Positions 2,167 to 42,458 of a stretch of DNA of 50,988 nt are shown one piece after another; positions within the stretch are counted from its first letter, which is position 1; each line of letters begins with the position of its first letter. A program made the position numbers and the translations under genes. The stretch is from sequence record ON185587.1. One strand, written 5' to 3'. The DNA is from Escherichia phage EC167. The notes beneath the pieces are model-generated. The model did not search any database. It was not told the origin of the DNA and saw nothing but the letters and a program-made list of their open reading frames with translations.

Positions 2167-3459
2167 ATGAGTGAAAAAACAAGGCTAGTTAAGGCCGATG
2201 GATACAACGAGATTTTCAAGGGTAGCAATGGCAATGGGCGTGTGGAGTTGCCTTTCTTTATGCAAGGGTTCGAATACACCACGCACGCTGATTTTTACAT
2301 TCGCGACGGCCTAGCAAAACGAATTATCGACGTTGTTCCAGAAGAAATGGTGACACCTGGATTTAATATTGATGGCGTGGAAGATGAGGAGAGTTTTAGA
2401 TCTTTGTGGGATGAGAAGCGACTAAACGATAAAATCATTGATGCGCTTTGCTGGTCGCGTCTTTTTGGTGGCGCTGCAATCGTGGCAATCGTTCAGGATG
2501 GCAGGGCATTAAAGTCACCTGTAGCGCCTGGTGCAATCCTTGAAGATGTTCGCGTTTACGATCGCTTTCAGGTTCGCGTAGAAAAGCGCGAAACTAATCC
2601 ACGTAAGGTGCGATATGGTGAGCCATTAATTTACACCATTTCACCTGGTGCGGACTTGCCAGAATATCAGGTTCACTATTCGCGAGTCTGTATTATCGAC
2701 GGTGAGCGGCTACCAAATCAGCGACGTCAGTCAAATGATGGTTGGGGTGAGTCAATCCTGAATAAGCGATTGGTTGAGGCTATTTGTGATTACAACTACT
2801 GCGAAAACTTAGCAACTCAATTGTTGCGACGTAAGCAACAGGCAGTATGGAAAGCTAAAGGACTTGCCGATCTTTGTGATGATGATGATGGTGTTAACGC
2901 CGCACGTTTGCGCCTTGCTCAAGTTGATGATGAGGGTGGCGTAGGCCGCGCGATCGGCATTGATGCGGAAGATGAGGAATATGATGTTTTAAATTCTGAT
3001 ATTTCCGGCGTCGATTCATTCCTGGAAAAGAAGATGGATCGCATTGTATCTCTTTCCGGCATCCATGAAATCATCCTCAAAAACAAGAACGTTGGCGGTG
3101 TTAGCGCGAGCCAAAACACGGCGCTTGAAACCTTCTACAAGCTGATCGATCGAAAGCGAAAGGAAGAATACAAACCAATCCTTGAATTTCTGATCCCGTT
3201 CCTGATTCAAGAGGAAGAATGGAGTATTCACTTTGCGCCGTTAAGCGTTCCCAGCGAAAAGGACCAGGCCGAGATCTTGAACAAGAATATTGATTCTTTG
3301 AGCAAGGCTATTGACGGTCAATTCATGGATACAGAGGAGGCGCGCGACACATTGCGAGCCATTGCGCCTAACGTTAAACTAAAGGACGGCAATAACATTA
3401 AATTACCTGAGCAGGACGTAGAGCTGGAGCCAGGAACAACCGAGGGTAGCAATCAATGA
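2167..3459 (+). CDS. portal protein
   Basis: ~430 aa ORF after terL with GGAG RBS; ORF-track start 2161 is a TTG, ATG at 2167 preferred; acidic C-terminus typical of portals. Confidence 0.75.
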   Translation: MSEKTRLVKADGYNEIFKGSNGNGRVELPFFMQGFEYTTHADFYIRDGLAKRIIDVVPEEMVTPGFNIDGVEDEESFRSLWDEKRLNDKIIDALCWSRLFGGAAIVAIVQDGRALKSPVAPGAILEDVRVYDRFQVRVEKRETNPRKVRYGEPLIYTISPGADLPEYQVHYSRVCIIDGERLPNQRRQSNDGWGESILNKRLVEAICDYNYCENLATQLLRRKQQAVWKAKGLADLCDDDDGVNAARLRLAQVDDEGGVGRAIGIDAEDEEYDVLNSDISGVDSFLEKKMDRIVSLSGIHEIILKNKNVGGVSASQNTALETFYKLIDRKRKEEYKPILEFLIPFLIQEEEWSIHFAPLSVPSEKDQAEILNKNIDSLSKAIDGQFMDTEEARDTLRAIAPNVKLKDGNNIKLPEQDVELEPGTTEGSNQ

Positions 3460-4211
3460 TAGTGAAAGGCGTCGTTAAACAATGGCGCTTTCCTGAAGCA
3501 AGCGAGCGGCAATTGCGCCGCTCAATTCAGGAGGCGATAAGGGATCTTGTTGTGCTGATGCGCAGCAAAACAAAGGAAATGAAATTTGACGCGGACACCG
3601 AAGAAATCAACGCCGCAGAGGATGAGATTAGTAGCTTCGCGTTAAAGCTAATAGCTGGCATCGCCGCATCACTTCCGGTTATCGGCCTTGCTGTTTATAA
3701 ATTCAACGCAAAGCAATTTATTAACGTAGCGAAATCAACGGGAGGCAAGTCAAATTCCGCCGTTATCATCCTTATGGCTATTGGGGCCAATGCGAATGAG
3801 AGTTGGTATAGGACGCTATACGGTCAATGGCATGACATGACGATCGCATCTCTTCAAAAACTATTTGTAAACATTGTGTCTGACTGGTCAACCAATATCA
3901 GATCGGCAAACTTTCGCGGAATGAGAGATAGTCAGGTTAATGAATTGGCTGGTAAGAGGTTCGCAGTTTATAGCTCTTGGGGTAAGACAAGGGCTGAAAA
4001 CATCATAGGCGCTTGGAATAGTAGACTCATGCGCCAGCGTCTTTATGATGCAAAAGTAGCTCATTATTTTTGGCATGGTATGCTTGATGACAGAGAGCGA
4101 TTACAGCATGTACAATGGGAAGGTAAGCGAATTGCGCTAGATTCTGAACATGATTTTCCTGGTGAGCCTTTCGGTTGTCGTTGTTGGGCTATACCAGATT
4201 GGAACAGTTAA
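3456..4211 (+). CDS. head morphogenesis protein (Mu F / SPP1 gp7-like)
   Basis: 251 aa; overlaps portal stop (ATGA); C-terminal H/G/R/C-rich region typical of F-like minor head proteins; position. Confidence 0.6.
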   Translation: MIVKGVVKQWRFPEASERQLRRSIQEAIRDLVVLMRSKTKEMKFDADTEEINAAEDEISSFALKLIAGIAASLPVIGLAVYKFNAKQFINVAKSTGGKSNSAVIILMAIGANANESWYRTLYGQWHDMTIASLQKLFVNIVSDWSTNIRSANFRGMRDSQVNELAGKRFAVYSSWGKTRAENIIGAWNSRLMRQRLYDAKVAHYFWHGMLDDRERLQHVQWEGKRIALDSEHDFPGEPFGCRCWAIPDWNS

Positions 4212-4221
4212 GAGGTATTAA

Positions 4222-5337
4222 ATGAAAGCAAAACAAAGATTTGATAGCGCCAAAGTAAAGGCGCACTTTGATGATAACGGGTTTTTAGTTGATCGCCCTA
4301 TCGTGGCGCGAATTGGTTTACAAGTCTATCAGACCCCTTTCGGTGAGCGCAGAGAGTTTCGTCCTGCGTCCGAAGTATTCAAGGCCGACTCACTCGCCAC
4401 CTTCGCAGGGAAGCCAGTCACGGTTGGTCACGTTACGGTAACTCCAGAAAACGCCGAAAAGGTTGTGGTTGGTTCTTGTGCTGGTGCTGGTGTGCCGAAC
4501 GGGATCGGCGTAGAGGTTCCGTTAAGCATTTACTCAAAACGAGCAATCGAAAGCGCGAAGAAGCGAGACACGGCGGAGATTTCAGTTGGTTATACATCGG
4601 TTGATATTGATAAACCAGGTTGGGGCAATAATAAAACTGGTGAGTACGTTTTCGATGAGGATGTTAGCGAAGACTGGAAACCTGATTCTCCTGATTGGGT
4701 TAAGTTTGATGCAATCCAGACTGAAATCAAGGTAAACCACATCGCGTTAGTTTTCCGAGGTCGCGCGGGTATTGCAAAATTAAACCTTGATAGCCAGCAA
4801 GATTTTCCGTATAGTGACGACGTTATTAACAACAAAGAGGATCAAATCATGACTGTAAAAATTAAACTTGATGGCGCTGTAGAGTTTGACGTGCCGAAAG
4901 CAGTTGCGGATCACATTGAATCACTGAAAGCTGATGCCAAAGCACAGAAAGAAAAGGCGGACGGTCTGGAAGCTGAGCGAGATGCACTGCAAACCAAAGT
5001 AGATGGCATTCAGGATCAGATTGATGCCGCAGTCAAGAAAGCAAAAGGAGATGCCGCGCAACATGCTCAATTAGTAGCAGACGCTAAAGAGTTAGGAATC
5101 AAGTGCGACGGCCTGGATGCGAAAGCAATCAAGGTTGCATACATCAAAGAAGTTATGGGCAATGACGTTTCCGATAAAACTGATGCCTATATCGAAACAG
5201 CTTTCGACATCGCCAAAAACTCTGATAAAATGGCGGCACAGCGTAAGAGCATTAAAGGTGACTCTTTCGCTAATGAAAAACAGGATGACGCAGGTTCTAA
5301 GCTGAATCCCAACGCTCGTTTTGAGAAACTGAAATAA
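4222..5337 (+). CDS. scaffolding / prohead maturation protein (coiled-coil C-terminus)
   Basis: 371 aa; long Ala/Lys/Asp/Gln-rich coiled-coil C-terminal half; located between F-like protein and capsid genes. Confidence 0.5.
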   Translation: MKAKQRFDSAKVKAHFDDNGFLVDRPIVARIGLQVYQTPFGERREFRPASEVFKADSLATFAGKPVTVGHVTVTPENAEKVVVGSCAGAGVPNGIGVEVPLSIYSKRAIESAKKRDTAEISVGYTSVDIDKPGWGNNKTGEYVFDEDVSEDWKPDSPDWVKFDAIQTEIKVNHIALVFRGRAGIAKLNLDSQQDFPYSDDVINNKEDQIMTVKIKLDGAVEFDVPKAVADHIESLKADAKAQKEKADGLEAERDALQTKVDGIQDQIDAAVKKAKGDAAQHAQLVADAKELGIKCDGLDAKAIKVAYIKEVMGNDVSDKTDAYIETAFDIAKNSDKMAAQRKSIKGDSFANEKQDDAGSKLNPNARFEKLK

Positions 5338-5349
5338 GGAGTAATTAAA

Positions 5350-5829
5350 ATGGCTAAAATTGGAGCAAGTTATTTTGACACTATGGCGATCGCACTACCT
5401 GGCATGGTTGCTGACACTTCTAAATACAACATTGACGGCGCTTGCGTCGTTAGTGAAGGTGGAGAAATTCTTGTTGGTACTGCCGTGCAGGTTGTCGCAG
5501 TGCAAGCGGTTGAAGGTCATAAACTTATTAAGCGCATGGAAACAGGAAAATACCCTTACGGTGTGGCAATTCGTTCTCACTGGCAAACTGTTAACTCTCA
5601 AGGAAAGATGGTTTATGAAGAAGGAAGCGCAATCAACGTAATGACATCTGGCAGAGTTTGGATTCTTTCAAAGTCAAGCGCAGCACCAGTCTTCGGAACT
5701 GCCGTTAAACTTGATGTTGATGGTCATGAAAAATCAGACGGCACAATCACTACTAACTGGACCTACGCTGGCGGATTTGTCAAATATAAAGATATTAATC
5801 TTGTAGAAGTTCAGTTGCAGCAACTGTAA
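5350..5829 (+). CDS. capsid-associated / head decoration-like protein
   Basis: 159 aa; strong RBS AAGGAG; N-terminal domain shared with next gene (DTSKYNIDG..PYG.A.RS). Confidence 0.5.
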   Translation: MAKIGASYFDTMAIALPGMVADTSKYNIDGACVVSEGGEILVGTAVQVVAVQAVEGHKLIKRMETGKYPYGVAIRSHWQTVNSQGKMVYEEGSAINVMTSGRVWILSKSSAAPVFGTAVKLDVDGHEKSDGTITTNWTYAGGFVKYKDINLVEVQLQQL

Positions 5830-15951: not shown

Positions 15952-16528
15952 GTTATCTGGATCTTTAGGCAGAAGATTTGGAGTATTTCATAAGCTGGCT
16001 GTTGACTCATACCCTGAAGCAATCCGCGCACTATCTTCGCAGGTGGAAGGATTCAAGGACTACATGCAAAGCGAAGTAGGATCGCGAATGCGTTACGCTG
16101 TATTTGTTGATGGCAAGAACGTTGGACAGCACAATGAAAAAGCGTGGAAATGTGCAAAGGAAGTGAGGATTATTCCAATCCCAACAGGTTCAAAGTCTGG
16201 TGGGTTGTTTCAGGTTGTTCTTGGGGCGGTTATTATGGCGACTGCATTTTTTACTGGTGGAGCTTCACTTGCTTTGATGGGTGCCTTTGCATCGTCTGCT
16301 TTCATGATGGGTGGCGCTATGGTACTTGGCGGTGTAATGCAAATGATCTCACCGCAGCAAGGAGGATCAAGATTGTCATCCCAATCAGCAGAAAACAAGC
16401 CGTCTTATGCTTTCGGCGGCGCTGTCAACACAACGGCAGCAGGATACCCAATACCATTGCCATATGGTCAAAGGACCGTTGGCGGTGCTATCTGGTCGGC
16501 TGGAAGCTATGCAGAGGATAAGGCTTAA
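15932..16528 (+). CDS. tail assembly protein (lambda I-like)
   Basis: 198 aa, overlaps K-like gene, hydrophobic Gly/Ala-rich C-terminal half; position before J. Confidence 0.55.
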   Translation: MTLKVIKLSGSLGRRFGVFHKLAVDSYPEAIRALSSQVEGFKDYMQSEVGSRMRYAVFVDGKNVGQHNEKAWKCAKEVRIIPIPTGSKSGGLFQVVLGAVIMATAFFTGGASLALMGAFASSAFMMGGAMVLGGVMQMISPQQGGSRLSSQSAENKPSYAFGGAVNTTAAGYPIPLPYGQRTVGGAIWSAGSYAEDKA

Positions 16529-16534
16529 TATAAA

Positions 16535-16563
16535 AGAGTCGCGCGTTGCGCGGCTTTTTTTTT
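16535..16563 (+). terminator. intrinsic terminator-like hairpin before J
   Basis: GTCGCGCG-TTG-CGCGGC followed by T9; then GCCCGTATAAT promoter-like -10. Confidence 0.55.
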
Positions 16564-16608
16564 GCCCGTATAATTCAACAAATCAAATAGCACAAAAGGT
16601 GAAAAGGC

Positions 16609-19600
16609 ATGGCTGAAAATATGATAACTGGCAGTAAGGGGGGATCATCAAAACCTTATGTGCCGAAAGAGATGGAAGATAACCTGATCTCAATAAACAA
16701 AATCAAAATCCTTCTTGCCGTTTCCGATGGCGAGTGCGATCCAGATTTCACGCTTCGCGATCTGTATCTTGATGATGTTCCTGTAATTGCAGACGACGGA
16801 ACTGTTAACTACCAGGGTGTGAGCGCAGAGTTTCGCCCAGGTACACAGACTCAAGATTACATCCAGGGATTTACTGACACGTCAAGCGAAGTGACGCTGG
16901 CGCGTGACATTACTACGTCAAATCCTTATGTAATTTCTGTAACCAACAAAACATTATCTGCTATCAGAATAAAAATGCTAATGCCAACAGGCATTAAGCA
17001 AGAGGATAACGGCGATCTTGTCGGCGTTAAGGTTACTTATGCTGTTGATGTGGCTGTTGACGGAGACTCTTACAAAGAAGTATTGCGAGACACTATCGAA
17101 GGTAAAACTCGCTCCGGTTACGACAGAAGCAGAAGGATTGACCTTCCGGCATTTAATGATCGAGTATTACTTAGGGTTAGAAGGGTTACGGCAGACAGCA
17201 CATCTTCTCGTGTTACTGATCTTATTAAGCTACAAAGTTACGCTGAGGTTATTGATGCAAAATTCCGTTATCCTCTGACTGGTCTTGTATACGTTGAATT
17301 TGACAGTGAGTTGTTCCCTAACCAGATCCCTAACATTTCAATCAAGAAGAAATGGAAGTTAATTAATGTTCCGAGCAATTACGATCCGGTAATGCGAGAG
17401 TATCACGGTTCATGGGATGGTACTTTCAAGAAAGCGTGGTCGAACAATCCGGCGTGGGTTCTTTATGACATTATCACAAACCAGCGATACGGATTAGATC
17501 AGCGAGAACTTGGCGTGCAGGTTGACAAATGGAGTCTTTACGAAGCGGCGCAATACTGCGATCAGAAAGTGCCGGATGGAAAAGGCGGTACAGAGCCGCG
17601 TTATCTATGCGACGTTGTGATTCAAAGCCAGATTGAGGCTTATCAGCTTATTCGTGACATTTGCTCTATCTTCCGTGGAATGAGCTTTTGGAATGGAGAG
17701 AGCTTGTCAATAGTTATTGATAAACCACGCGATCCATCTTACATCTTCACAAATGATAACGTTGTTGATGGGGATTTTCAGTATACGACAGCAAGCGAAA
17801 AGAGCATGTACACACAGTGCAACGTGACGTTCGACGACGAGCAAAACATGTATCAGCAGGACGTCGAAGGCGTGTTTGATACTGAGGCAGCACTACGCTT
17901 TGGATACAATCCTACAAGCATAACAGCGATCGGATGTACGCGCAGGAGTGAGGCAAATCGGCGCGGTCGATGGATACTAAAAACCAACTTGCGCAGCACT
18001 ACTGTAAACTTTGCTACTGGCCTGGAAGGGATGATCCCATCAATAGGTGATGTGATTGCTGTTGCTGACAACTTTCACAGCAGCAACCTGAAGTTAAACC
18101 TATCAGGTCGCGTGATGGAGGTTTCCGGTTTGCAGGTGTTCGTTCCGTTTAAGATTGACGCGCGACCAGGTGATTTCATTATCATCAACAAGCCTGACGG
18201 AAAGCCAGTTAAGCGCACAATCTCAAAGGTAAGCGGTGACGGAAAAACCATTGAGTTAAACATTGGGTTTGGATTTGAAGTTAAACCGGACACGGTTTTT
18301 GCAATCGACCGCACTGATATTGCATTGCAGCAATACGTTGTAACGAGTATCGGCAAAGGTGATGATGATGATGATGATGATGAATTTACAACGGCTGTTG
18401 AATATGACCCGAACAAATACGACGAGATTGATTATGGAGTAAACATTGACGACAGGCCAACTTCAATTGTCCAGCCTGACACAATGGCAGCGCCTGAAAA
18501 TGTGCAAATATCCTCCTACTCGCGAATTGTCCAGGGTGCAAGCGTTGAAACAATGGTTGTGTCGTGGGATAAAGTACCTTACGCATCGCTGTATGAAATG
18601 CAGTGGCGAAAAGGTGATGGCAACTGGCTGTATACGCCGCAGACAGCTAACAAAGAGATAGAGGTAGAAGGAATTTATTCAGGGAACTATCAAGTAAGGG
18701 TTAGATCTGTTTCTGCAAGCGGTAACACCTCCCCGTGGTCAAAGATTGCAACCGCCACCCTGATAGGTAAAGTTGGCGAGCCAGGAGCGCCGATTAATCT
18801 TACAGCTTCTGATAATGAAGTTTTTGGCATTCGTGTCAAATGGGGTATGCCGGAAGGATCAGGCGATACGGCTTACATTGAGCTTCACCAATCTCCAGAC
18901 GGAACGGTTGAAAACTCAAGCCTGCTTACGCTGATTCCATATCCTCAATATGAGTATTGGCATAGCACGTTACCAGCGGGTCAAGTTGTATGGTATAGAA
19001 TCCGTAGCGTTGACAGGATCGGCAACGTTTCCGGCTGGACTGACTTTGTTCGCGGCATGGCGTCAGATGATGTTGAATCTGTTTTAGGCGACATTCTGGA
19101 CAAGATTTTTGATACCGAAGCGGGTCAAGAAATCAAAGAGAACGCCATAGACAGTGCAAACAAAATCAAAGACCAGGCGCAATCAATCATCCAGAACGCA
19201 TTGGCAAACGATGCTGATGTGAAGTGGACGCGAGTACAAAACGGAAAGCGTAAGGCTGAATATGGTCATGCACTGGAGCTTATTGCTACCGAAACGGAGG
19301 CGCGCGTAACTCAAATCGAAGAGTTAAGGGCGTCAATTGATAAAGATATAGTTTCAAGTATCAAAACCGTTCAGGAAGCGATTGCCAACGAATCAGAGAC
19401 GCGAGCTACTCAAGTTCAGCAGCTTGATTCTAAATTTACAAAGGAAATAGACGGCGTAAAACGAGATACGGCTGCAAGTATTGGCGAGGTAAGGCAAACC
19501 ATTGCCAATGAATCAGAAGCGCGCGCTCAGGCCGTTCAGCAGCTTGACGCTAAGTTCACGAAAGAGATAAACGACCTTGACGGAGTTATCAAAACAGAAG

Positions 19601-20187
19601 TCGAGGCTAACATCTCAGAAGTGAAACAGGCGATCGCCAATGAGACAGAGGCAAGGGTTCAGGCTGACCAGGCTTTAACAGCCAAATTTGGAGACGTTGA
19701 ATCTGCATTAGCTCAAAAACTTGATTCGTGGGCCAACGTTGATTCGGTTGGCGCTAAGTACGCTATGAAATTGGGCCTTACTTACAAGGGGCAGAAGTAC
19801 AGCGCAGGCATGATCATGCAGTTGTCGCAATCTTCTCAAGGCCTGATCTCGCAAATCTTGTTCGATGCTAACAGGTTCGCGATCATGACTAGCTCTACTG
19901 GCGGTACGTTTACATTGCCTTTCGTTGTTGAAAACAACCAAGTTTTCATTAACAGCTTGTTAGTGAAAAACGGGTCCATAACGAATGCCATGATTGGAAA
20001 TGTTATTCAGTCAAACAATTTTGTTCAAAATCAGCAAGGTTGGAGGCTTGATAAAAACGGAATATTTGAAAACTACGGATCAACTCCAGGAGAGGGAGCT
20101 ACTAAATTCACCAACGAAGGATTGAAGGTAAAAGATGCAAACGGAGTATTGAGGGTTGAAGTCGGAAGGATTACCGGAAGCTGGTAA
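16609..20187 (+). CDS. central tail fiber / host specificity protein (lambda J-like)
   Basis: 1192 aa; J-type conserved core (WSNNPAWVLYDIITNQRYGLD), FN3-like region, poly-Asp linker, C-terminal tandem ~40-aa coiled-coil repeats. Confidence 0.85.
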   Translation: MAENMITGSKGGSSKPYVPKEMEDNLISINKIKILLAVSDGECDPDFTLRDLYLDDVPVIADDGTVNYQGVSAEFRPGTQTQDYIQGFTDTSSEVTLARDITTSNPYVISVTNKTLSAIRIKMLMPTGIKQEDNGDLVGVKVTYAVDVAVDGDSYKEVLRDTIEGKTRSGYDRSRRIDLPAFNDRVLLRVRRVTADSTSSRVTDLIKLQSYAEVIDAKFRYPLTGLVYVEFDSELFPNQIPNISIKKKWKLINVPSNYDPVMREYHGSWDGTFKKAWSNNPAWVLYDIITNQRYGLDQRELGVQVDKWSLYEAAQYCDQKVPDGKGGTEPRYLCDVVIQSQIEAYQLIRDICSIFRGMSFWNGESLSIVIDKPRDPSYIFTNDNVVDGDFQYTTASEKSMYTQCNVTFDDEQNMYQQDVEGVFDTEAALRFGYNPTSITAIGCTRRSEANRRGRWILKTNLRSTTVNFATGLEGMIPSIGDVIAVADNFHSSNLKLNLSGRVMEVSGLQVFVPFKIDARPGDFIIINKPDGKPVKRTISKVSGDGKTIELNIGFGFEVKPDTVFAIDRTDIALQQYVVTSIGKGDDDDDDDEFTTAVEYDPNKYDEIDYGVNIDDRPTSIVQPDTMAAPENVQISSYSRIVQGASVETMVVSWDKVPYASLYEMQWRKGDGNWLYTPQTANKEIEVEGIYSGNYQVRVRSVSASGNTSPWSKIATATLIGKVGEPGAPINLTASDNEVFGIRVKWGMPEGSGDTAYIELHQSPDGTVENSSLLTLIPYPQYEYWHSTLPAGQVVWYRIRSVDRIGNVSGWTDFVRGMASDDVESVLGDILDKIFDTEAGQEIKENAIDSANKIKDQAQSIIQNALANDADVKWTRVQNGKRKAEYGHALELIATETEARVTQIEELRASIDKDIVSSIKTVQEAIANESETRATQVQQLDSKFTKEIDGVKRDTAASIGEVRQTIANESEARAQAVQQLDAKFTKEINDLDGVIKTEVEANISEVKQAIANETEARVQADQALTAKFGDVESALAQKLDSWANVDSVGAKYAMKLGLTYKGQKYSAGMIMQLSQSSQGLISQILFDANRFAIMTSSTGGTFTLPFVVENNQVFINSLLVKNGSITNAMIGNVIQSNNFVQNQQGWRLDKNGIFENYGSTPGEGATKFTNEGLKVKDANGVLRVEVGRITGSW
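18361..18381 (+). repeat. (GAT)7 trinucleotide repeat encoding poly-Asp linker in J
   Basis: Seven perfect GAT codons followed by GAA; read directly from sequence. Confidence 0.9.
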
Positions 20188-20217
20188 AAAAAAGGGGGCA
20201 TAGCCCCCTTTAATTTT
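20186..20217. terminator. bidirectional terminator between J and the minus-strand RBP cassette
   Basis: A8-GGGGGC-ATA-GCCCCC-TTTAATTTT; U-tract on both strands. Confidence 0.7.
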
Positions 20218-20830
20218 AATCATAGTGTGATGCATTTATAACCAAAACAGATGAGGCGGTGTAAATACCAACAGGTCCAGGGGTTTGTGCAACCTGCCTG
20301 GAAAAAGAGTAGATCCCGTTACCATACGCGGCAGCTTGAGACTCAAAAATCATAAATCCACCTAAAGCCGGATTAGGTACAGAGTTTAACGCTGTTAGTG
20401 ATGGCATTATTGCGCAAGGGTAGCCCAGGTTAACATCAAACGCGATCCCGCTCACACCAACTTGCTTTGCATCAAGCGGCCTCATTTTTCCATGATAAAC
20501 CATTTCACCATGAGCGTTATAAAACGCTATGCCGTGACTACCTGGAGGAGTCACAATGTTACTAAAAGCATAAACAATAACCTCCCCTTGATTATCAGAT
20601 CTATCAATTCTTATTGCGTGCCTTCCACCATTGTTAAATTGCGTAAATGATATGTATGATTTAGCAGTCAATCTAACAAAGAAAAAACATACCCTATCAA
20701 CAGGAATTGACGAAGTAAAAACGGTTCCGGTATTAGCAGATATTACTGCCCGATCAATTAGATTAACTGGAGTGAAATCTGGACTTAACCATAACGATCC
20801 GTCTGATTTTTTTATACTCATCCCGTACAT
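20216..20830 (-). CDS. putative receptor-binding protein (RBP-locus gene)
   Basis: ~204 aa ORF (start ATG at 20830; ORF-track 20842 is TTG) downstream of J on opposite strand, in a cassette ending with a Cor-like lipoprotein; function inferred from position. Confidence 0.4.
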   Translation of the reverse strand: MYGMSIKKSDGSLWLSPDFTPVNLIDRAVISANTGTVFTSSIPVDRVCFFFVRLTAKSYISFTQFNNGGRHAIRIDRSDNQGEVIVYAFSNIVTPPGSHGIAFYNAHGEMVYHGKMRPLDAKQVGVSGIAFDVNLGYPCAIMPSLTALNSVPNPALGGFMIFESQAAAYGNGIYSFSRQVAQTPGPVGIYTASSVLVINASHYD

Positions 20831-20832
20831 TA

Positions 20833-21111
20833 TCACCCCCAAAAAGTATATATATATCTTGAATCAGATCCAGAAAGCCCACTCCATGTAACGGTGTCGC
20901 CACTTACCCCTAAGTTTGGTGCTCCAGGGTCGCCACCACGCCAGGAATTCATGCTAACATATATTGCTTTCAATGATTTACCTGGCGGCCTGTTTTGGTA
21001 AGTCTTGCTACCTGATGGCTGAGTGAATTTATCAAGGAAGAAAACAGGCGTTAAAAGTCCTGTAACTTCCCTTCCTCGATCGTCATATATTGCATAACCA
21101 TATTGCGCCAT
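20833..21111 (-). CDS. hypothetical protein of RBP cassette
   Basis: 92 aa; start codon overlaps upstream stop (TAATG) indicating translational coupling. Confidence 0.4.
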   Translation of the reverse strand: MAQYGYAIYDDRGREVTGLLTPVFFLDKFTQPSGSKTYQNRPPGKSLKAIYVSMNSWRGGDPGAPNLGVSGDTVTWSGLSGSDSRYIYTFWG

Positions 21112-21380
21112 TAATTACACCTCAAATCAATAAATTTACTTTCATTTTGCCAACGGTTGATAAATTTAACTTCTTTATTGTTAACGCTCAACCTGTATTG
21201 CTTTTGGCTGAATCTGTTTTCGCGGACCGCATTAATTTTAACTTCATGGAATCCGTTAACAGGGAATGTTTTAACGTTAAATTTTGCCGTGCAATCGATC
21301 TCCTTGAAGTTGCCAGTAGGCGAAGAAGAACATCCGGTCAGAGCGGCTACGGTGGCGATAACTGCGATTAATTTTTTCAT
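21111..21380 (-). CDS. outer-membrane lipoprotein, Cor-like superinfection exclusion candidate
   Basis: Signal peptide MKKLIAVIATVAALTG-C with lipobox; ~89 aa; AAGGAG RBS; location next to tail fiber genes as for cor/llp genes. Confidence 0.55.
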   Translation of the reverse strand: MKKLIAVIATVAALTGCSSSPTGNFKEIDCTAKFNVKTFPVNGFHEVKINAVRENRFSQKQYRLSVNNKEVKFINRWQNESKFIDLRCN

Positions 21381-21386
21381 CTTCAA

Positions 21387-21881
21387 TACTCCTTAGTTGT
21401 TGTTGGCTGTAACTATACACGATCCGGCAAGCCGAGTTTAGCAAAAAGTGCTACTTGTTATTTTTTGTTTTCCAGCGTTATCGAATTTAAGACGGCGCAA
21501 ATTTAGCGCAAATTTTAGACAACATAAGAGCAATAAACAATCAATAAAATAGATACATACATATAAAATCAATAGTTTATTTATTTATGTATGTATATTT
21601 GTTTTTTCTTGTTATCTGTGTTTCTTGTGGTTTTGGTTGTTTGTGGTGATTTTTCTTTCTGAGTATCTGCATGTGCCATCATTCATGTGTATGTATATAA
21701 TCCTGCGTATCTGAGAGAACAAGGGAACAAGAAAAATAACACATGTTAATCATTAACTTACATGTCAGATTTGTTTTCTTGCCATCTGAGAACGTTTAGG
21801 AAACAGAAAAAACAAAACAACTATTGACTAAATCAACCAAATGGCTACAATGCACACACAAAGCAACAAGGAGCATCAAAG
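21387..21881. promoter_or_regulatory. AT-rich non-coding control region 1 (divergent promoters, inverted and tandem repeats)
   Basis: 495 bp without credible ORF; 13-bp inverted repeat TACATACATATAA/TTATGTATGTA, tandem GCGCAAATTT x2, IHF-like AATCAATAGTTTA, GGGAACAAGAAAAA box, TTGACT-17-TACAAT promoter for exo-erf-ssb. Confidence 0.6.
21436..21455 (-). promoter_or_regulatory. conserved intergenic motif variant upstream of Cor-like operon
   Basis: Minus strand reads AGTAGCACTTTTTGCTAAAC followed by GTATAGT. Confidence 0.45.
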
Positions 21882-22937
21882 ATGAGTGATTTTAACGCCT
21901 ACACTAGCGAAGAAATGAGCAATGAGCTTTATCATGATCCTAACGCGTGGACGGCTGAATACGTCAGCGGTTCCAGCCTGGCGGAGATTTACAGCACTTG
22001 CCCGGCGTACTGGAAGTACAAGCCTCGCCAGGAAACCAAAGCACTTGTTTTCGGTACGCAGTCGCATACCAATTTTGAAAGCAAGGAGTTATTCGAAAAA
22101 ACATATCGCCGCGCACCGTCGCAGGATGACTTTAAGGATCTGATAACAAGCCAAACTGCGTTGGCTTCAAAGCTGAAATCTTTTGGCCTGAAAGGCACGA
22201 CTGGTAAGCAGTATCCAGAATTGTTGGAAATGCTGTACAAGTGCGGTGAGGATCTCAATGTATGGTGGCTTATCGAAATGATGGCAGAATGCCAGGCAGC
22301 AGCGGACGGAGTGCAGTTAATCGACGCGAAAGACTATGATGCCTGTGTAGCGATGCGGCGCGTACTTGAGGCAATACCTGAGCATAATGCTTGCATGAAT
22401 AGCCCAACCGCGCAGCGTGAAATGTCAATATTCGGGATCATCAATGGCGTAAAAGTTAAAGTGCGTCTTGATCACGTTGACGTAAACAATGATGTAAAGG
22501 CCACAATCATTAACGGTTACGACGAAAAAGGCCGACCGATTTATGAAGAGGTCATCTATCCAGAAGCTGTGATTATCACTGACTATAAAACAACGGTTAG
22601 CGCAAATCCGGTTGACTTCCAGCGCCTGGCTTACAATCACGGCTATTATCTCAAAATGGCTTTGCAGCATGATTTATTCAAAAAGGCTTATCCAGACGAA
22701 GAAAGACCAGTAATTGTGAGATTGCTTGCTCAAGAGAAGAAAGAGCCTTACTTGCCGCTCGCATTCCGCATGAACATTGAGCAATTGAAGATTGGGCGTA
22801 TCCAGTACATGAGCGTGATCAATAAGTTCAATGTTTGCCAGAAGTTAGATGAATGGCCTTCGTATGCAAACGGACAACCAGAAATTGATCTTGATACTCC
22901 TGATTGGGTGCGCGCTCAATTCAGGCAGTATCTATAA
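21882..22937 (+). CDS. recombination exonuclease (PD-(D/E)XK family)
   Basis: 351 aa; D..D/E..K signature (DHVD...IITDYKT); immediately upstream of Erf-like annealing protein. Confidence 0.55.
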   Translation: MSDFNAYTSEEMSNELYHDPNAWTAEYVSGSSLAEIYSTCPAYWKYKPRQETKALVFGTQSHTNFESKELFEKTYRRAPSQDDFKDLITSQTALASKLKSFGLKGTTGKQYPELLEMLYKCGEDLNVWWLIEMMAECQAAADGVQLIDAKDYDACVAMRRVLEAIPEHNACMNSPTAQREMSIFGIINGVKVKVRLDHVDVNNDVKATIINGYDEKGRPIYEEVIYPEAVIITDYKTTVSANPVDFQRLAYNHGYYLKMALQHDLFKKAYPDEERPVIVRLLAQEKKEPYLPLAFRMNIEQLKIGRIQYMSVINKFNVCQKLDEWPSYANGQPEIDLDTPDWVRAQFRQYL

Positions 22938-22998
22938 CAAACTAAACAAATAGCTAAACTTTTATAATGGTTGGTGATATAATTCGCCAACCAGATAA

Positions 22999-23667
<669 letters not shown>

Positions 23668-41787: not shown

Positions 41788-42458
41788 TGCTATCTCCTGA
41801 TCGGTTCGTTTTGATGTGTGTAATGTACCCGATCAGGTGGCCTGAGTTTTAACAAAAAGTGCTATTTGACGGTTAGCGCCAGGATTGCGATCGAAATAAT
41901 CATAAGTAATCATTCGTAATCAAATCACGTCAAAATGATGATTGCCTTTGCAAATTTGATGAGAAAAGCAATCACGTTTAATCATTGGTTGCAGGGGAGA
42001 TAGTGAAACCTTCCCCTCTCGCCTCACTTTTTTGCCTGGCTGTCAGTGGTTGTTATGTTCCGTTCCTGCGTGTTCTTTTGTTGACCTTCCGCAAAATACG
42101 ATAACAAAAAATAACAAACAATACCTATATAATACATTGAAAAATAAGGATTATTTATTTATATGTATCTATATATTCTCTTTTGTTATCTTGGTTATTG
42201 TGGTATTTGGTGGGGGTATATAGTTTTTGTGTATCTGTATGTGTGTATGGGTATGTAGGGGTATATATATCTATATGGCGCTTTCCGCGAGAAAACTTCG
42301 ATAACAAGCAATGATAACATTGATTTATAAGGAAAAATAACGCCTATATTGTTATTGTGCCACCATATAAAATTGATAAAACACGCGGGAACAAGAAAAA
42401 ACAGTTGACACATTAAATAGCATTATTGATAATGCCCACACCTAACAACCAGGAGGCA
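41788..42458. promoter_or_regulatory. AT-rich non-coding control region 2 (divergent promoters, iterons, dyads)
   Basis: 671 bp without credible ORF; TAATCAT repeats phased at 10 bp (41897, 41907, 41917) plus further copies; hairpin + U-tract at about 42003-42045; GT-rich repeats homologous to region 1; GGGAACAAGAAAAA box; TTGACA-17-GATAAT promoter for early genes. Confidence 0.6.
41846..41866 (-). promoter_or_regulatory. conserved intergenic motif (minus orientation)
   Basis: Minus strand: AATAGCACTTTTTGTTAAAAC upstream of 41787 gene. Confidence 0.5.

What the first reader, a model, noticed from the sequence alone, without database searches (positions are those of the whole stretch)
20216..21455. 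Opposite-strand cassette after J: candidate receptor-binding protein, coupled small protein and Cor-like lipoprotein
Three overlapping minus-strand genes are transcribed from a motif-type promoter and end at a bidirectional terminator shared with J. The first gene encodes a ~89-aa lipoprotein (lipobox LTG-C) resembling Cor/Llp-type superinfection exclusion proteins that block the phage's own outer-membrane receptor. The two downstream proteins have no recognisable motifs and are candidates for the receptor-binding determinant; such loci are typically hypervariable.
Basis: partly seen in the sequence, partly recalled or inferred. Interest (0 to 1): 0.5.

Follow-up and report, generated by a model that had tools for sequence, protein, structure and literature searches.

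The report
BtuB-type receptor cassette after tail-tip gene
This is the already-described host-receptor cassette of a T1-like coliphage: a receptor-binding protein with a small partner, plus a lipoprotein that probably blocks the same receptor (BtuB) on infected cells; it is real but ordinary.

Summary
Three tightly packed minus-strand genes (lipoprotein 21111-21380, 92 aa 20833-21111, 204 aa 20216-20830) lie between a copy of a recurrent promoter-like motif and a hairpin terminator shared with J.

The window is a Warwickvirus (Drexlerviridae), about 98% identical here to phages tiwna, tonnikala and FritzSarasin (Bas04). Bas04 is recorded as BtuB-dependent, and this is the published 'bona fide RBP locus downstream of gpJ' (Maffei 2021), BtuB allele.

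What I add:
- The 92-aa and 204-aa families (PHROG 557 and 425, as in T1 gp32/gp31) occur fused into one ~315-aa protein right after J in many phages, so they act as one unit.
- All three proteins co-vary with receptor type (BtuB versus FhuA), while the J tip does not.
- The swap boundary lies at the lipobox. The resemblance to Cor is therefore mostly the signal peptide and first mature Cys; the mature lipoprotein is a distinct, BtuB-associated family.

No protein function was tested here. Interest is low.

The parts
21412..21453 (-). Promoter-like element: a diverged copy of the recurrent 19-nt motif (TAGCACTTTTTGCTAAACT, 21453-21435), an 18-nt spacer, then the -10-like TATAGT (21417-21412)
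   Evidence: 15 copies in the window against 0.03 expected, with the same motif-to-hexamer spacing as family D1. Activity was not tested.
21111..21380 (-). 89-aa lipoprotein (signal peptide plus lipobox LTG|C; mature ~72 aa with conserved Cys30 and Cys88). Candidate BtuB-directed superinfection-exclusion protein, a Cor/Llp/Rtp45 analogue. RBS AAGGAG at 21388-21393.
20833..21111 (-). 92-aa protein of PHROG 557 (the family of T1 gp32), mislabelled 'outer membrane protein'. Proposed partner or adaptor of the RBP at the J tip.
   Evidence: family more conserved than the 204-aa family; no signal peptide or TM segment; fused to the large protein in ~315-aa homologues; literature: Ig-like small protein modelled at the tail-spike tip.
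20216..20830 (-). 204-aa all-beta protein of PHROG 425 (the family of T1 gp31), mislabelled 'membrane associated protein'. Proposed receptor-binding protein for BtuB.
20191..20211 (.). Hairpin (AAAGGGGGC-ATA-GCCCCCTTT) with T-runs on both strands: a shared convergent terminator for J and for the cassette
   Evidence: terminators annotated at the same place in vB_Eco_Sip.
20199..21330 (.). The exchangeable segment: the stretch with no DNA homology to the FhuA-type Warwickvirus Bas05. Its right end lies just after the lipobox codons of the lipoprotein gene; its left end lies in the terminator.
   Evidence: blastn: homology 16001-20198 and 21331-23500 only. (Bas05 and Bas06 signal peptides 100% identical; mature parts 19%).
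16609..20187 (+). J-like central tail fibre (1192 aa). Its C-terminal ~100 aa are the presumed docking site for the 204-aa/92-aa unit.
   Evidence: 67% identical to T1 gp33; C-terminal ~250 aa align with the Stx-phage fibre that precedes the same gene pair; last 100 aa 80-86% identical between BtuB- and FhuA-type Tempevirinae.

Best explanation
This is the receptor-specificity cassette of a T1-like (Warwickvirus) phage, in its BtuB-type allele.

The 204-aa protein is the receptor-binding protein. It is not part of J. It docks non-covalently on the C-terminal tip of the trimeric J fibre, together with or through the 92-aa protein, and binds the extracellular face of the outer-membrane vitamin B12 transporter BtuB to trigger irreversible adsorption.

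The first gene encodes a small lipoprotein. It would be exported and anchored in the inner leaflet of the outer membrane, where it binds the periplasmic side of the same receptor and makes it unusable. This protects the infected cell from superinfection and protects progeny from being wasted on cell debris. That is how T5 Llp acts on FhuA and Rtp45 acts on LptD.

The three genes form one operon that runs from a phage-type promoter motif towards J and ends at the shared hairpin. The segment from the lipobox to the terminator is exchanged as a block between phages, which switches receptor and immunity together.

Shown here: gene structure, family membership, fold similarity, co-variation with receptor type, fusion of the two tip proteins in other phages, and the exchange boundaries. 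Inferred: BtuB binding by the 204-aa protein, the role of the 92-aa protein, exclusion by the lipoprotein, and promoter activity.
For: Identity and receptor:
- The region is 96-98% identical to Warwickviruses including Bas04.
- Bas04 is listed with BtuB as terminal receptor. Bas06 (BtuB) has the same three-gene layout. Bas05 and Bas07 are listed as FhuA.
- The window's proteins are 95/98/99% identical to Bas04's and 52/71/65% to Bas06's, but 16-26% to those of the FhuA phages Bas05 and T1. The last 100 aa of J are 80-86% identical across both receptor types.

The 204-aa protein as RBP:
- Oekolampad has the same layout: SE lipoprotein first, RBP last, convergent on J. Both functions are reported as shown experimentally there (bioRxiv 10.1101/2025.07.07.663478).

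The 92-aa and 204-aa proteins as a unit tied to J:
- The same PHROGs, 557 and 425, are matched in T1 and in Stx phage P27. In both, the pair follows a fibre gene, and in P27 that fibre has a J-like C-terminus.
- Proteins of 307-325 aa carry PHROG 557 at the N-terminus and PHROG 425 at the C-terminus. They start where a J-sized ORF of at least 700 aa ends in 75 of 78 viral loci. About half of these loci have a convergent lipoprotein ORF downstream, by a crude pattern that gave at least one false positive.
- Neither protein has a signal peptide or a TM segment.
- Literature: a 204-aa protein encoded downstream of the needle gene of phi24B, a short-tailed Stx phage, was detected in virions, with extra density at the needle tip. 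AlphaFold-Multimer placed the 'hand-like' protein on the spike tip.

Lipoprotein:
- It has a lipobox and two conserved Cys, like T1 Cor.
- Its family tracks BtuB.
- The exchange joint lies at the lipobox.
Against: - No experiment here or in the papers read shows that this 204-aa protein binds BtuB. Support in the literature is correlation plus AlphaFold3 models.
- Sequence-level homology to the LptD-type RBP is absent (hhalign probability 0.2%), so that link rests on a predicted model.
- The role of the 92-aa protein is open. In phi24B the small protein was not detected by mass spectrometry, and multimer modelling did not settle its position.
- Putting an RBP gene behind an exclusion gene in one operon implies shared timing, which is unexplained.
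- The promoter is a motif match only; the sigma-70 scan found nothing canonical there.
Confidence: 0.8

Rival explanations
1. All three products are envelope proteins that act together in superinfection exclusion. The 92-aa and 204-aa proteins are an 'outer membrane protein' and a 'membrane associated protein' that assist the Cor-like lipoprotein. Receptor recognition lies elsewhere.
For: The PHROG and RefSeq names say so. The KanT1 paper suggests a role related to exclusion because of the association with cor (PMC13164509). In this window the three genes share one operon headed by the lipoprotein gene.
Against: Neither protein has a signal peptide or a hydrophobic segment. The fold matches a solved RBP. 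In T1, Bas05 and Stx phages the pair is transcribed with the fibre gene, and Stx phage P27 has the pair with no small lipoprotein gene annotated next to it. Fused forms directly follow J. The phi24B 204-aa counterpart is reported in virions. Membrane-affinity estimates in PMC12309495 were low.
Confidence: 0.06
2. The 92-aa and/or 204-aa proteins are assembly chaperones for the J tip (like lambda Tfa or T4 gp38-type helpers) and are not in the virion. The receptor is read by the C-terminus of J itself.
For: The genes are small and lie next to the fibre gene, as is usual for fibre chaperones. PMC12309495 mentions structural or chaperone-like roles. The small protein was not seen in phi24B virions. 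A preprint reports receptor-associated k-mers in the J C-terminal tip.
Against: The last 100 aa of J are 80-86% identical between BtuB and FhuA phages, whereas the cassette proteins fall into two classes that follow the receptor. The large protein has the fold of an RBP solved in contact with its receptor. The phi24B 204-aa counterpart was found in virions. This rival remains open for the 92-aa protein alone.
Confidence: 0.1
3. The lipoprotein is not an exclusion factor. It could be an unrelated moron, or a lysis-type lipoprotein (o-spanin-like) that happens to sit here.
For: There are weak PHROG hits to Rz-like spanins and to several unknown lipoprotein families (E 0.03-0.08). No sequence or fold match to Llp, Rtp45 or mature Cor could be established.
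Against: Those weak hits cover only the signal peptide (residues 1-26). The gene occupies exactly the slot of cor in T1 and Bas05 and of the proven SE gene in the Oekolampad/Rtp layout. Its mature domain changes together with the RBP and the receptor. The two-Cys pattern matches T1 Cor.
Confidence: 0.08

Closest known systems
BtuB-type 'bona fide RBP locus' downstream of gpJ in Drexlerviridae (Bas04 FritzSarasin bas04_0023-0025; Bas06 KarlJaspers bas06_0024-0026; Maffei et al. 2021, PMC8594841)
   Same: Same position, same three genes in the same order and orientation. Proteins are 95-99% identical to Bas04's and 52-71% to Bas06's. Both phages are recorded as BtuB-dependent.
   Different: Nothing of substance; the window is another isolate of the same allele.
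T1 / N15-type FhuA cassette (T1 gp32, gp31 and Cor gp30; Bas05)
   Same: Same PHROG families 557, 425 and 1119, in the same slot between J and the exonuclease VIII-like gene. The lipoprotein gene is in the same place and orientation.
   Different: In T1 and Bas05 the small and large genes run with J and only cor is convergent. Here the pair is inverted and follows the lipoprotein gene. Proteins are only 16-26% identical (hhalign of the large protein E 8e-6). The receptor is FhuA, not BtuB.
LptD-type locus (Oekolampad bas18_0025 RBP plus bas18_0026 SE lipoprotein; Rtp44/Rtp45; PDB 9RPT, 9RPS)
   Different: The RBP is a single 321-aa chain with no separate small protein. There is no detectable sequence homology (PHROG 1265 only E 0.021). 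The receptor is LptD.
Stx-phage (Traversvirus) pair: P27 gp60/gp59, and the gp55/gp54 pair downstream of the phi24B needle gene
   Same: In P27, a 92-aa and a 205-aa protein in the same order lie right after a fibre gene with a J-like C-terminus. They are 54% and about 44% identical to the window's proteins. The phi24B paper describes a 204-aa protein, encoded with a small one downstream of the needle gene, that was detected in virions.
   Different: These are short-tailed temperate phages. No small lipoprotein gene is annotated next to the pair, and Lom follows instead. The reported receptor is BamA.
T5 Llp / pb5 system
   Same: Same logic: a separate RBP on the tip of the central fibre, plus a small lipoprotein that disables the same TonB-dependent transporter from the periplasmic side (PMC9586334, as summarised).

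Membership tests
Receptor-specificity locus downstream of gpJ in small siphoviruses, BtuB allele (Maffei 2021) | Lies directly downstream of the gpJ homologue, between conserved flanks | tested here: met
   The J stop is at 20187 and the cassette spans 20216-21380. The flanks are homologous to Bas05, but the cassette is not.
Receptor-specificity locus downstream of gpJ in small siphoviruses, BtuB allele (Maffei 2021) | Allele matches that of phages with an experimentally determined BtuB requirement | tested here: met
   95-99% protein identity to Bas04 and 52-71% to Bas06, both listed as BtuB. 16-26% to the FhuA phages Bas05 and T1.
Receptor-specificity locus downstream of gpJ in small siphoviruses, BtuB allele (Maffei 2021) | The phage needs BtuB, and the encoded protein binds it | not testable with these tools
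   Needs plating on a btuB mutant and binding assays. The literature read offers only correlation and AlphaFold3 models.
PHROG 425 / PHROG 557 tail-tip pair (T1 gp31/gp32; 'hand-like' plus small Ig-like proteins of Matusiak 2025) | Profile match over the full length | tested here: met
   204-aa protein: PHROG 425, E 2e-48, residues 1-204. 92-aa protein: PHROG 557, E 1.6e-20, residues 3-92. T1 and P27 proteins hit the same profiles.
PHROG 425 / PHROG 557 tail-tip pair (T1 gp31/gp32; 'hand-like' plus small Ig-like proteins of Matusiak 2025) | Small gene then large gene, next to a fibre gene with a J-type C-terminus | tested here: met
   The small-then-large order is kept and the pair is adjacent to J. 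The orientation relative to J is inverted compared with T1.
PHROG 425 / PHROG 557 tail-tip pair (T1 gp31/gp32; 'hand-like' plus small Ig-like proteins of Matusiak 2025) | Component of the virion tail tip | not testable with these tools
   The only evidence is from the literature on the phi24B 204-aa protein gp54.
Cor superinfection-exclusion protein (T1 gp30, phi80/N15 Cor; PHROG 1119) | Homology of the mature domain to Cor | tested here: not met
   BLASTP and hhalign alignments to T1 Cor stop at residue 34-35, that is, the signal peptide plus the first Cys. Mature parts are 16-22% identical. The PHROG 1119 match is weak (E 3e-8, 35 bits), although its reported stretch spans residues 1-89. The shared signal peptide is part of the conserved flank.
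Cor superinfection-exclusion protein (T1 gp30, phi80/N15 Cor; PHROG 1119) | Small lipoprotein with a lipobox and two mature Cys, encoded convergent to J next to the tip-protein genes | tested here: met
   Lipobox LTGC; Cys30 and Cys88 invariant in 13 homologues; T1 Cor has Cys25 and Cys73. The gene is in the same slot as cor in T1 and Bas05.
Cor superinfection-exclusion protein (T1 gp30, phi80/N15 Cor; PHROG 1119) | Excludes FhuA-dependent phages | not testable with these tools
   Not expected here, since the family tracks BtuB. Needs expression in trans.
T5 Llp-type fold | Structural similarity to Llp (PDB 8A60 chain B) | tested here: inconclusive
LptD-binding RBP family (Rtp44 / Oekolampad RBP; PHROG 1265) | Fold similarity to the solved RBP | tested here: met
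LptD-binding RBP family (Rtp44 / Oekolampad RBP; PHROG 1265) | Sequence homology | tested here: not met
   hhalign probability 0.2%. PHROG 1265 only E 0.021 over 46 residues. The Oekolampad RBP hits PHROG 1265 at 2e-122 and not PHROG 425.

The most novel reading that the evidence does not exclude
The 92-aa and 204-aa proteins are two chains of a single receptor-binding unit, encoded as one fused ~315-aa protein in Erwinia, Pantoea and Pseudescherichia prophages. This unit shares a fold, and so probably an ancestor, with the LptD-binding RBPs. If so, the FhuA-, BtuB- and LptD-specific RBPs of small siphoviruses, and probably the BamA-associated pair of Stx phages, would be one superfamily of 'hand-like' tip proteins rather than the 'unrelated families' stated in the literature. 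Receptor and immunity would be exchanged together by recombination between the J terminator and the lipobox-coding joint of the lipoprotein gene.
Probability: 0.5. Interest if true: 0.45.

Novelty: already known. Interest (0 to 1): 0.25.

Why it matters
The cassette decides which outer-membrane protein the phage uses and which phages an infected cell excludes. Reading it allows a receptor prediction from sequence alone: BtuB here. That is useful for designing phage cocktails and for making phage-resistant production strains.

This particular locus has already been catalogued, so the window adds no new kind of system. Three points from this work could be useful. [quoted passage not shown] The fold link to the solved LptD-binding RBP and the natural fusions argue that the small and large proteins form one RBP unit. 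The exchange joint at the lipobox suggests a simple design rule for swapping receptor and immunity together in engineered T1-like phages.

Tried and rejected
- Pfam gave nothing above threshold for any of the three proteins.
- Profile searches of PDB sequences gave nothing for the lipoprotein or the 204-aa family.
- The simple sigma-70 scan found no canonical promoter upstream of the lipoprotein gene. The promoter claim rests on the recurrent motif only.
- Cor orthology of the lipoprotein was rejected. Pairwise and profile-profile similarity to T1 Cor is confined to the signal peptide and first Cys.
- The Llp fold test was inconclusive.
- The spanin reading was rejected: those PHROG hits cover the signal peptide only.
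- I tested whether the 92-aa protein is a paralogue of one half of the 204-aa protein. Only a ~21-residue hairpin motif aligns (YG-x-x-I-Y/W-D/N-x-x-G; hhalign probability 8%). Similar-looking segments occur at the N-terminus and middle of the large protein and in the J C-terminus, but I did not test this statistically. I treat it as a lead only.
- I tested whether the 92-aa protein corresponds to part of the 321-aa Oekolampad RBP. No signal was found.
- I tested whether the J C-terminus co-varies with receptor type among the five phages compared. It does not clearly do so.
- The Rtp genome paper (PMC1367250), which first proposed RBPs downstream of J, is not held. I cite it only through PMC8594841 and PMC13164509.
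- The lipoprotein homologue in Proteus phage 3H10_20 is not next to a tip-protein gene, so it gave no extra context.
Full report
**1. What is in the sequence**

Between the stop of the 1192-aa J-like gene (16609-20187, plus strand) and an exonuclease VIII-like gene (21882-22937) there are three minus-strand ORFs:
- an 89-aa protein at 21111-21380, starting MKKLIAVIATVAALTG|CSSS;
- a 92-aa protein at 20833-21111;
- a 204-aa protein at 20216-20830.

Read directly, the first two genes overlap by one base (TAATG). The second and third are 2 nt apart (TGA-TA-ATG). Each start is preceded by a Shine-Dalgarno-like sequence.

A hairpin at 20191-20211 (9 pairs, 6 G-C) with T-runs on both strands fills the 28-nt gap between the two convergent stop codons. 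The same site is annotated as a terminator in phage vB_Eco_Sip.

Upstream of the first gene lies a diverged copy of a 19-nt motif, TAGCACTTTTTGTTAAAAC. The motif has 15 copies in the window within 3 mismatches, against 0.03 expected. As in the other copies, a -10-like hexamer follows 18 nt downstream, here TATAGT at 21417-21412. Promoter activity is inferred only, because a plain sigma-70 scan sees nothing canonical there.

**2. Where the window comes from, and what is known about this locus**

The stretch 20100-21600 is 96-98% identical to many Warwickvirus genomes (Drexlerviridae, Tempevirinae). These include tiwna, tonnikala and FritzSarasin (Bas04), all of which annotate the same three CDSs.

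Maffei et al. 2021 (PMC8594841) described the 'bona fide RBP loci' directly downstream of gpJ in these small siphoviruses. They matched the alleles to the terminal receptors. Their supplementary table lists the following:
- Bas04 (Warwickvirus): BtuB
- Bas05 (Warwickvirus): FhuA
- Bas06 (Hanrivervirus): BtuB
- Bas07 (Hanrivervirus): FhuA

A 2026 preprint (10.64898/2026.04.02.716166) confirms the correlation on more phages. [quoted passage not shown] It supports these by AlphaFold3 models only.

For the LptD allele there is experimental proof. The Oekolampad RBP was solved bound to LptDE. The adjacent lipoprotein of phage Rtp (Rtp45) was solved on the periplasmic side of LptD, where it prevents RBP binding (10.1101/2025.07.07.663478).

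**3. The three proteins follow the receptor; J does not**

I compared the window with Bas04, Bas06 (both BtuB), Bas05 and T1 (both FhuA). Identities are given for mature lipoprotein / small protein / large protein:
- Window to Bas04: 95 / 98 / 99%.
- Window to Bas06: 52 / 71 / 65%.
- Window to Bas05 or T1: 16-26%.

The last 100 residues of J are 80-86% identical among the Tempevirinae whatever the receptor. The predicted receptor of this phage is therefore BtuB. This rests on near-identity to a phage with a recorded receptor, not on a test.

**4. The 204-aa protein has the fold of a solved RBP**

- Pfam and PDB sequence searches are empty.
- PHROG 425 matches at E 2e-48. T1 gp31 and the Stx-phage P27 gp59 match the same profile.
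- A profile of 15 homologues aligns to T1 gp31 with E 8e-6. The BtuB and FhuA proteins are therefore remote homologues, not unrelated.
- An AlphaFold2 model built on that alignment is confident (pLDDT 88, pTM 0.85, all-beta).
- Sequence methods do not see this relation.
- Foldseek against predicted viral structures finds the fold in uncharacterised proteins of 204-334 aa. These come from phages of Pectobacterium, Proteus, Providencia, Pseudomonas, Acinetobacter and Xanthomonas.

The Oekolampad locus has the same layout as the window: SE lipoprotein gene first, RBP gene last, convergent on J.

**5. The 92-aa protein belongs with the 204-aa protein**

- It matches PHROG 557 (E 1.6e-20), as do T1 gp32 and P27 gp60.
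- Its family is more conserved than that of the large protein: mean column identity 77% against 66%. That fits a structural partner better than the receptor-contacting part.
- An exhaustive profile search with the 204-aa family found 126 clusters. About a dozen are proteins of 307-325 aa in which the match starts near residue 95-110.
- Four of the five such proteins I scanned carry PHROG 557 in their first ~80 residues and PHROG 425 in the rest. These are natural fusions, in the same order as the two genes.
- In 75 of 78 viral contigs the fused gene starts where a J-sized ORF of at least 700 aa ends. Two of these ORFs were checked and match the J family, PHROG 31.
- In about half of the contigs a convergent lipoprotein ORF follows. 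This count comes from a crude pattern that gave at least one false positive. Two of these ORFs were checked and match PHROG 1119.
- The fusions occur in prophages of Erwinia, Pantoea, Pseudescherichia, Enterobacter and relatives.

Neither protein has a signal peptide or a hydrophobic segment. [quoted passage not shown]

Published work points the same way:
- Matusiak et al. 2025 (PMC12309495) modelled a small Ig-like protein and a 'hand-like' protein at the tail-spike tip of Dhillonvirus, Traversvirus and Littlefixvirus.
- A cryo-EM and proteomics preprint on Stx phage phi24B detected a 204-aa protein (gp54), encoded downstream of the needle gene, in virions. It also saw extra density at the needle tip. 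The small protein was not detected.

In Stx phage P27 the pair (54% and about 44% identical to the window's proteins) follows a fibre gene. The C-terminal ~250 residues of that fibre align with the C-terminus of the window's J.

**6. The lipoprotein is a Cor analogue, not a Cor orthologue**

- PHROG 1119 (Cor) matches weakly (E 3e-8).
- BLASTP and hhalign to T1 Cor align only residues 1-35, that is, the signal peptide, the lipobox and the first Cys.

The reason shows in a DNA comparison with Bas05, a FhuA-type phage of the same genus. Homology runs through J to 20198, breaks, and resumes at 21331. That point is about 50 nt inside the lipoprotein gene, just after the lipobox codons. Consistent with this, Bas05 (FhuA) and Bas06 (BtuB) have identical 17-residue signal peptides but mature parts only 19% identical.

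The exchanged block is therefore 20199-21330: mature lipoprotein, small protein and large protein. The signal peptide and the promoter region belong to the conserved flank.

Its function is inferred from three things:
- its position;
- its co-variation with the receptor;
- the two solved precedents, Llp on FhuA (like BtuB, a TonB-dependent transporter) and Rtp45 on LptD.

**7. Layout compared with T1**

In T1 and Bas05 the order is J, then small, then large on the J strand, with cor convergent. In the window, Bas04 and Bas06, the small-large pair is inverted and follows the lipoprotein gene in one operon. The proven LptD-type locus has the same operon layout. The BtuB allele thus combines T1-type protein families with the LptD-type layout. 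The consequence for timing, an RBP gene behind an exclusion gene, is unexplained.

**8. Verdict**

- the receptor is BtuB by inference;
- the lipoprotein is a distinct family that shares with Cor little more than the signal peptide;
- the two 'motif-less' proteins belong to known, though misnamed, phage families.

The locus in near-identical phages is already in the literature as the BtuB-specific receptor locus, so novelty is 'already known' and interest is low. What remains open and testable:
- direct binding of the 204-aa protein to BtuB;
- the role of the 92-aa protein;
- exclusion by the lipoprotein;
- whether the FhuA-, BtuB-, LptD- and BamA-associated tip proteins form one superfamily, as the fold match and the fusions suggest.

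Noticed in passing
window, 15 sites: 6920, 10671, 21435, 28495, 30984, 32054, 35776, 37938, 38930, 41846, 43192, 43655, 44860, 46069, 48865: A 19-nt motif, TAGCACTTTTTGTTAAAAC, recurs on both strands (15 copies against 0.03 expected). Each copy is followed 18 nt later by a -10-like hexamer, often with an inverted repeat in the spacer. Two minus-strand copies (6920, 10671) sit inside the plus-strand structural module and point against the genes, which a simple promoter reading does not explain.
   Followed up: partly
window 21460-21880, and 21577-21656 versus 42151-42211: About 420 nt of non-coding, AT-rich DNA lie between the cassette promoter and the exonuclease VIII-like gene. It contains a ~60-nt element (TTATTTATTTATGTATG...TTGTTATCTGTG...) that partly repeats in tandem and recurs at 42151-42211. 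This could be a regulatory or replication-related region.
   Followed up: no
window 19376-19468 and 19496-19588 (inside J): A 93-nt imperfect tandem repeat (71% identical) encodes repeated 'IANESExRA..VQQLD.KFTKEI' segments in the distal shaft of J. J also carries a run of eight Asp (GKGDDDDDDDDEF), where T1 has GDDDEE.
   Followed up: no
GenBank MG065643, MG065657, MG065681 ('Campylobacter phage' E6, C4, A139; 49,946 bp): These records carry a cassette 52-64% identical at protein level to the window's lipoprotein and 204-aa protein. They have the size of a T1-like coliphage, so the host label looks doubtful.
   Followed up: no
L008-L087 (IMG/VR contigs) and L088-L107 (Erwinia, Pantoea, Pseudescherichia, Enterobacter, Rosenbergiella, Lonsdalea genomes): The small and large tip proteins are fused into one 307-325-aa protein (PHROG 557 plus 425). 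The fused gene sits directly after a J-sized ORF in 75 of 78 viral loci, and about half of the loci have a convergent lipoprotein ORF downstream.
   Followed up: yes
L003 (Stx phage P27, NC_049925) 3434-5618: Short-tailed Stx phages carry the same small-plus-large pair (54% and about 44% identical to the window's proteins). It follows a 422-aa fibre protein with a J-like C-terminus, no small lipoprotein gene is annotated next to it, and lom comes next. A recent preprint found the phi24B 204-aa counterpart in virions and proposes it as the BamA-binding protein.
   Followed up: partly
L108 (Proteus phage 3H10_20, MT740244) 4001-4267; also Cronobacter phage vB_CsaP_009 and Vibrio phage vB_VibM_83AMN: Homologues of the lipoprotein (31-37% identical over the full length) occur in ~58-92 kb phages. 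In the Proteus phage, the one examined, the gene stands alone among early genes and tRNAs, not next to a tail-tip gene. The same Proteus phage also has a structural homologue of the 204-aa protein elsewhere (BFVD hit A0A7L7SGZ3).
   Followed up: partly
window J C-terminus (aa ~1143-1186), 92-aa protein aa 3-22, 204-aa protein aa 1-21 and 98-118: A short hairpin-like motif (YG-x-x-I-Y/W-D/N-x-x-G-x-hydrophobic) recurs at the N-termini of both tip proteins and in the middle of the large one. Similar segments occur twice in the last 50 residues of J (GWRLDKNGIFENYG, LKVKDANGVLRVEVG; compare T1 gp32 YGISTWDANGVYNNYG). It might be the docking element, but only the 21-column alignment between the 92-aa N-terminus and residues 98-118 of the large protein was tested (E 0.004, probability 8%).
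   Followed up: partly
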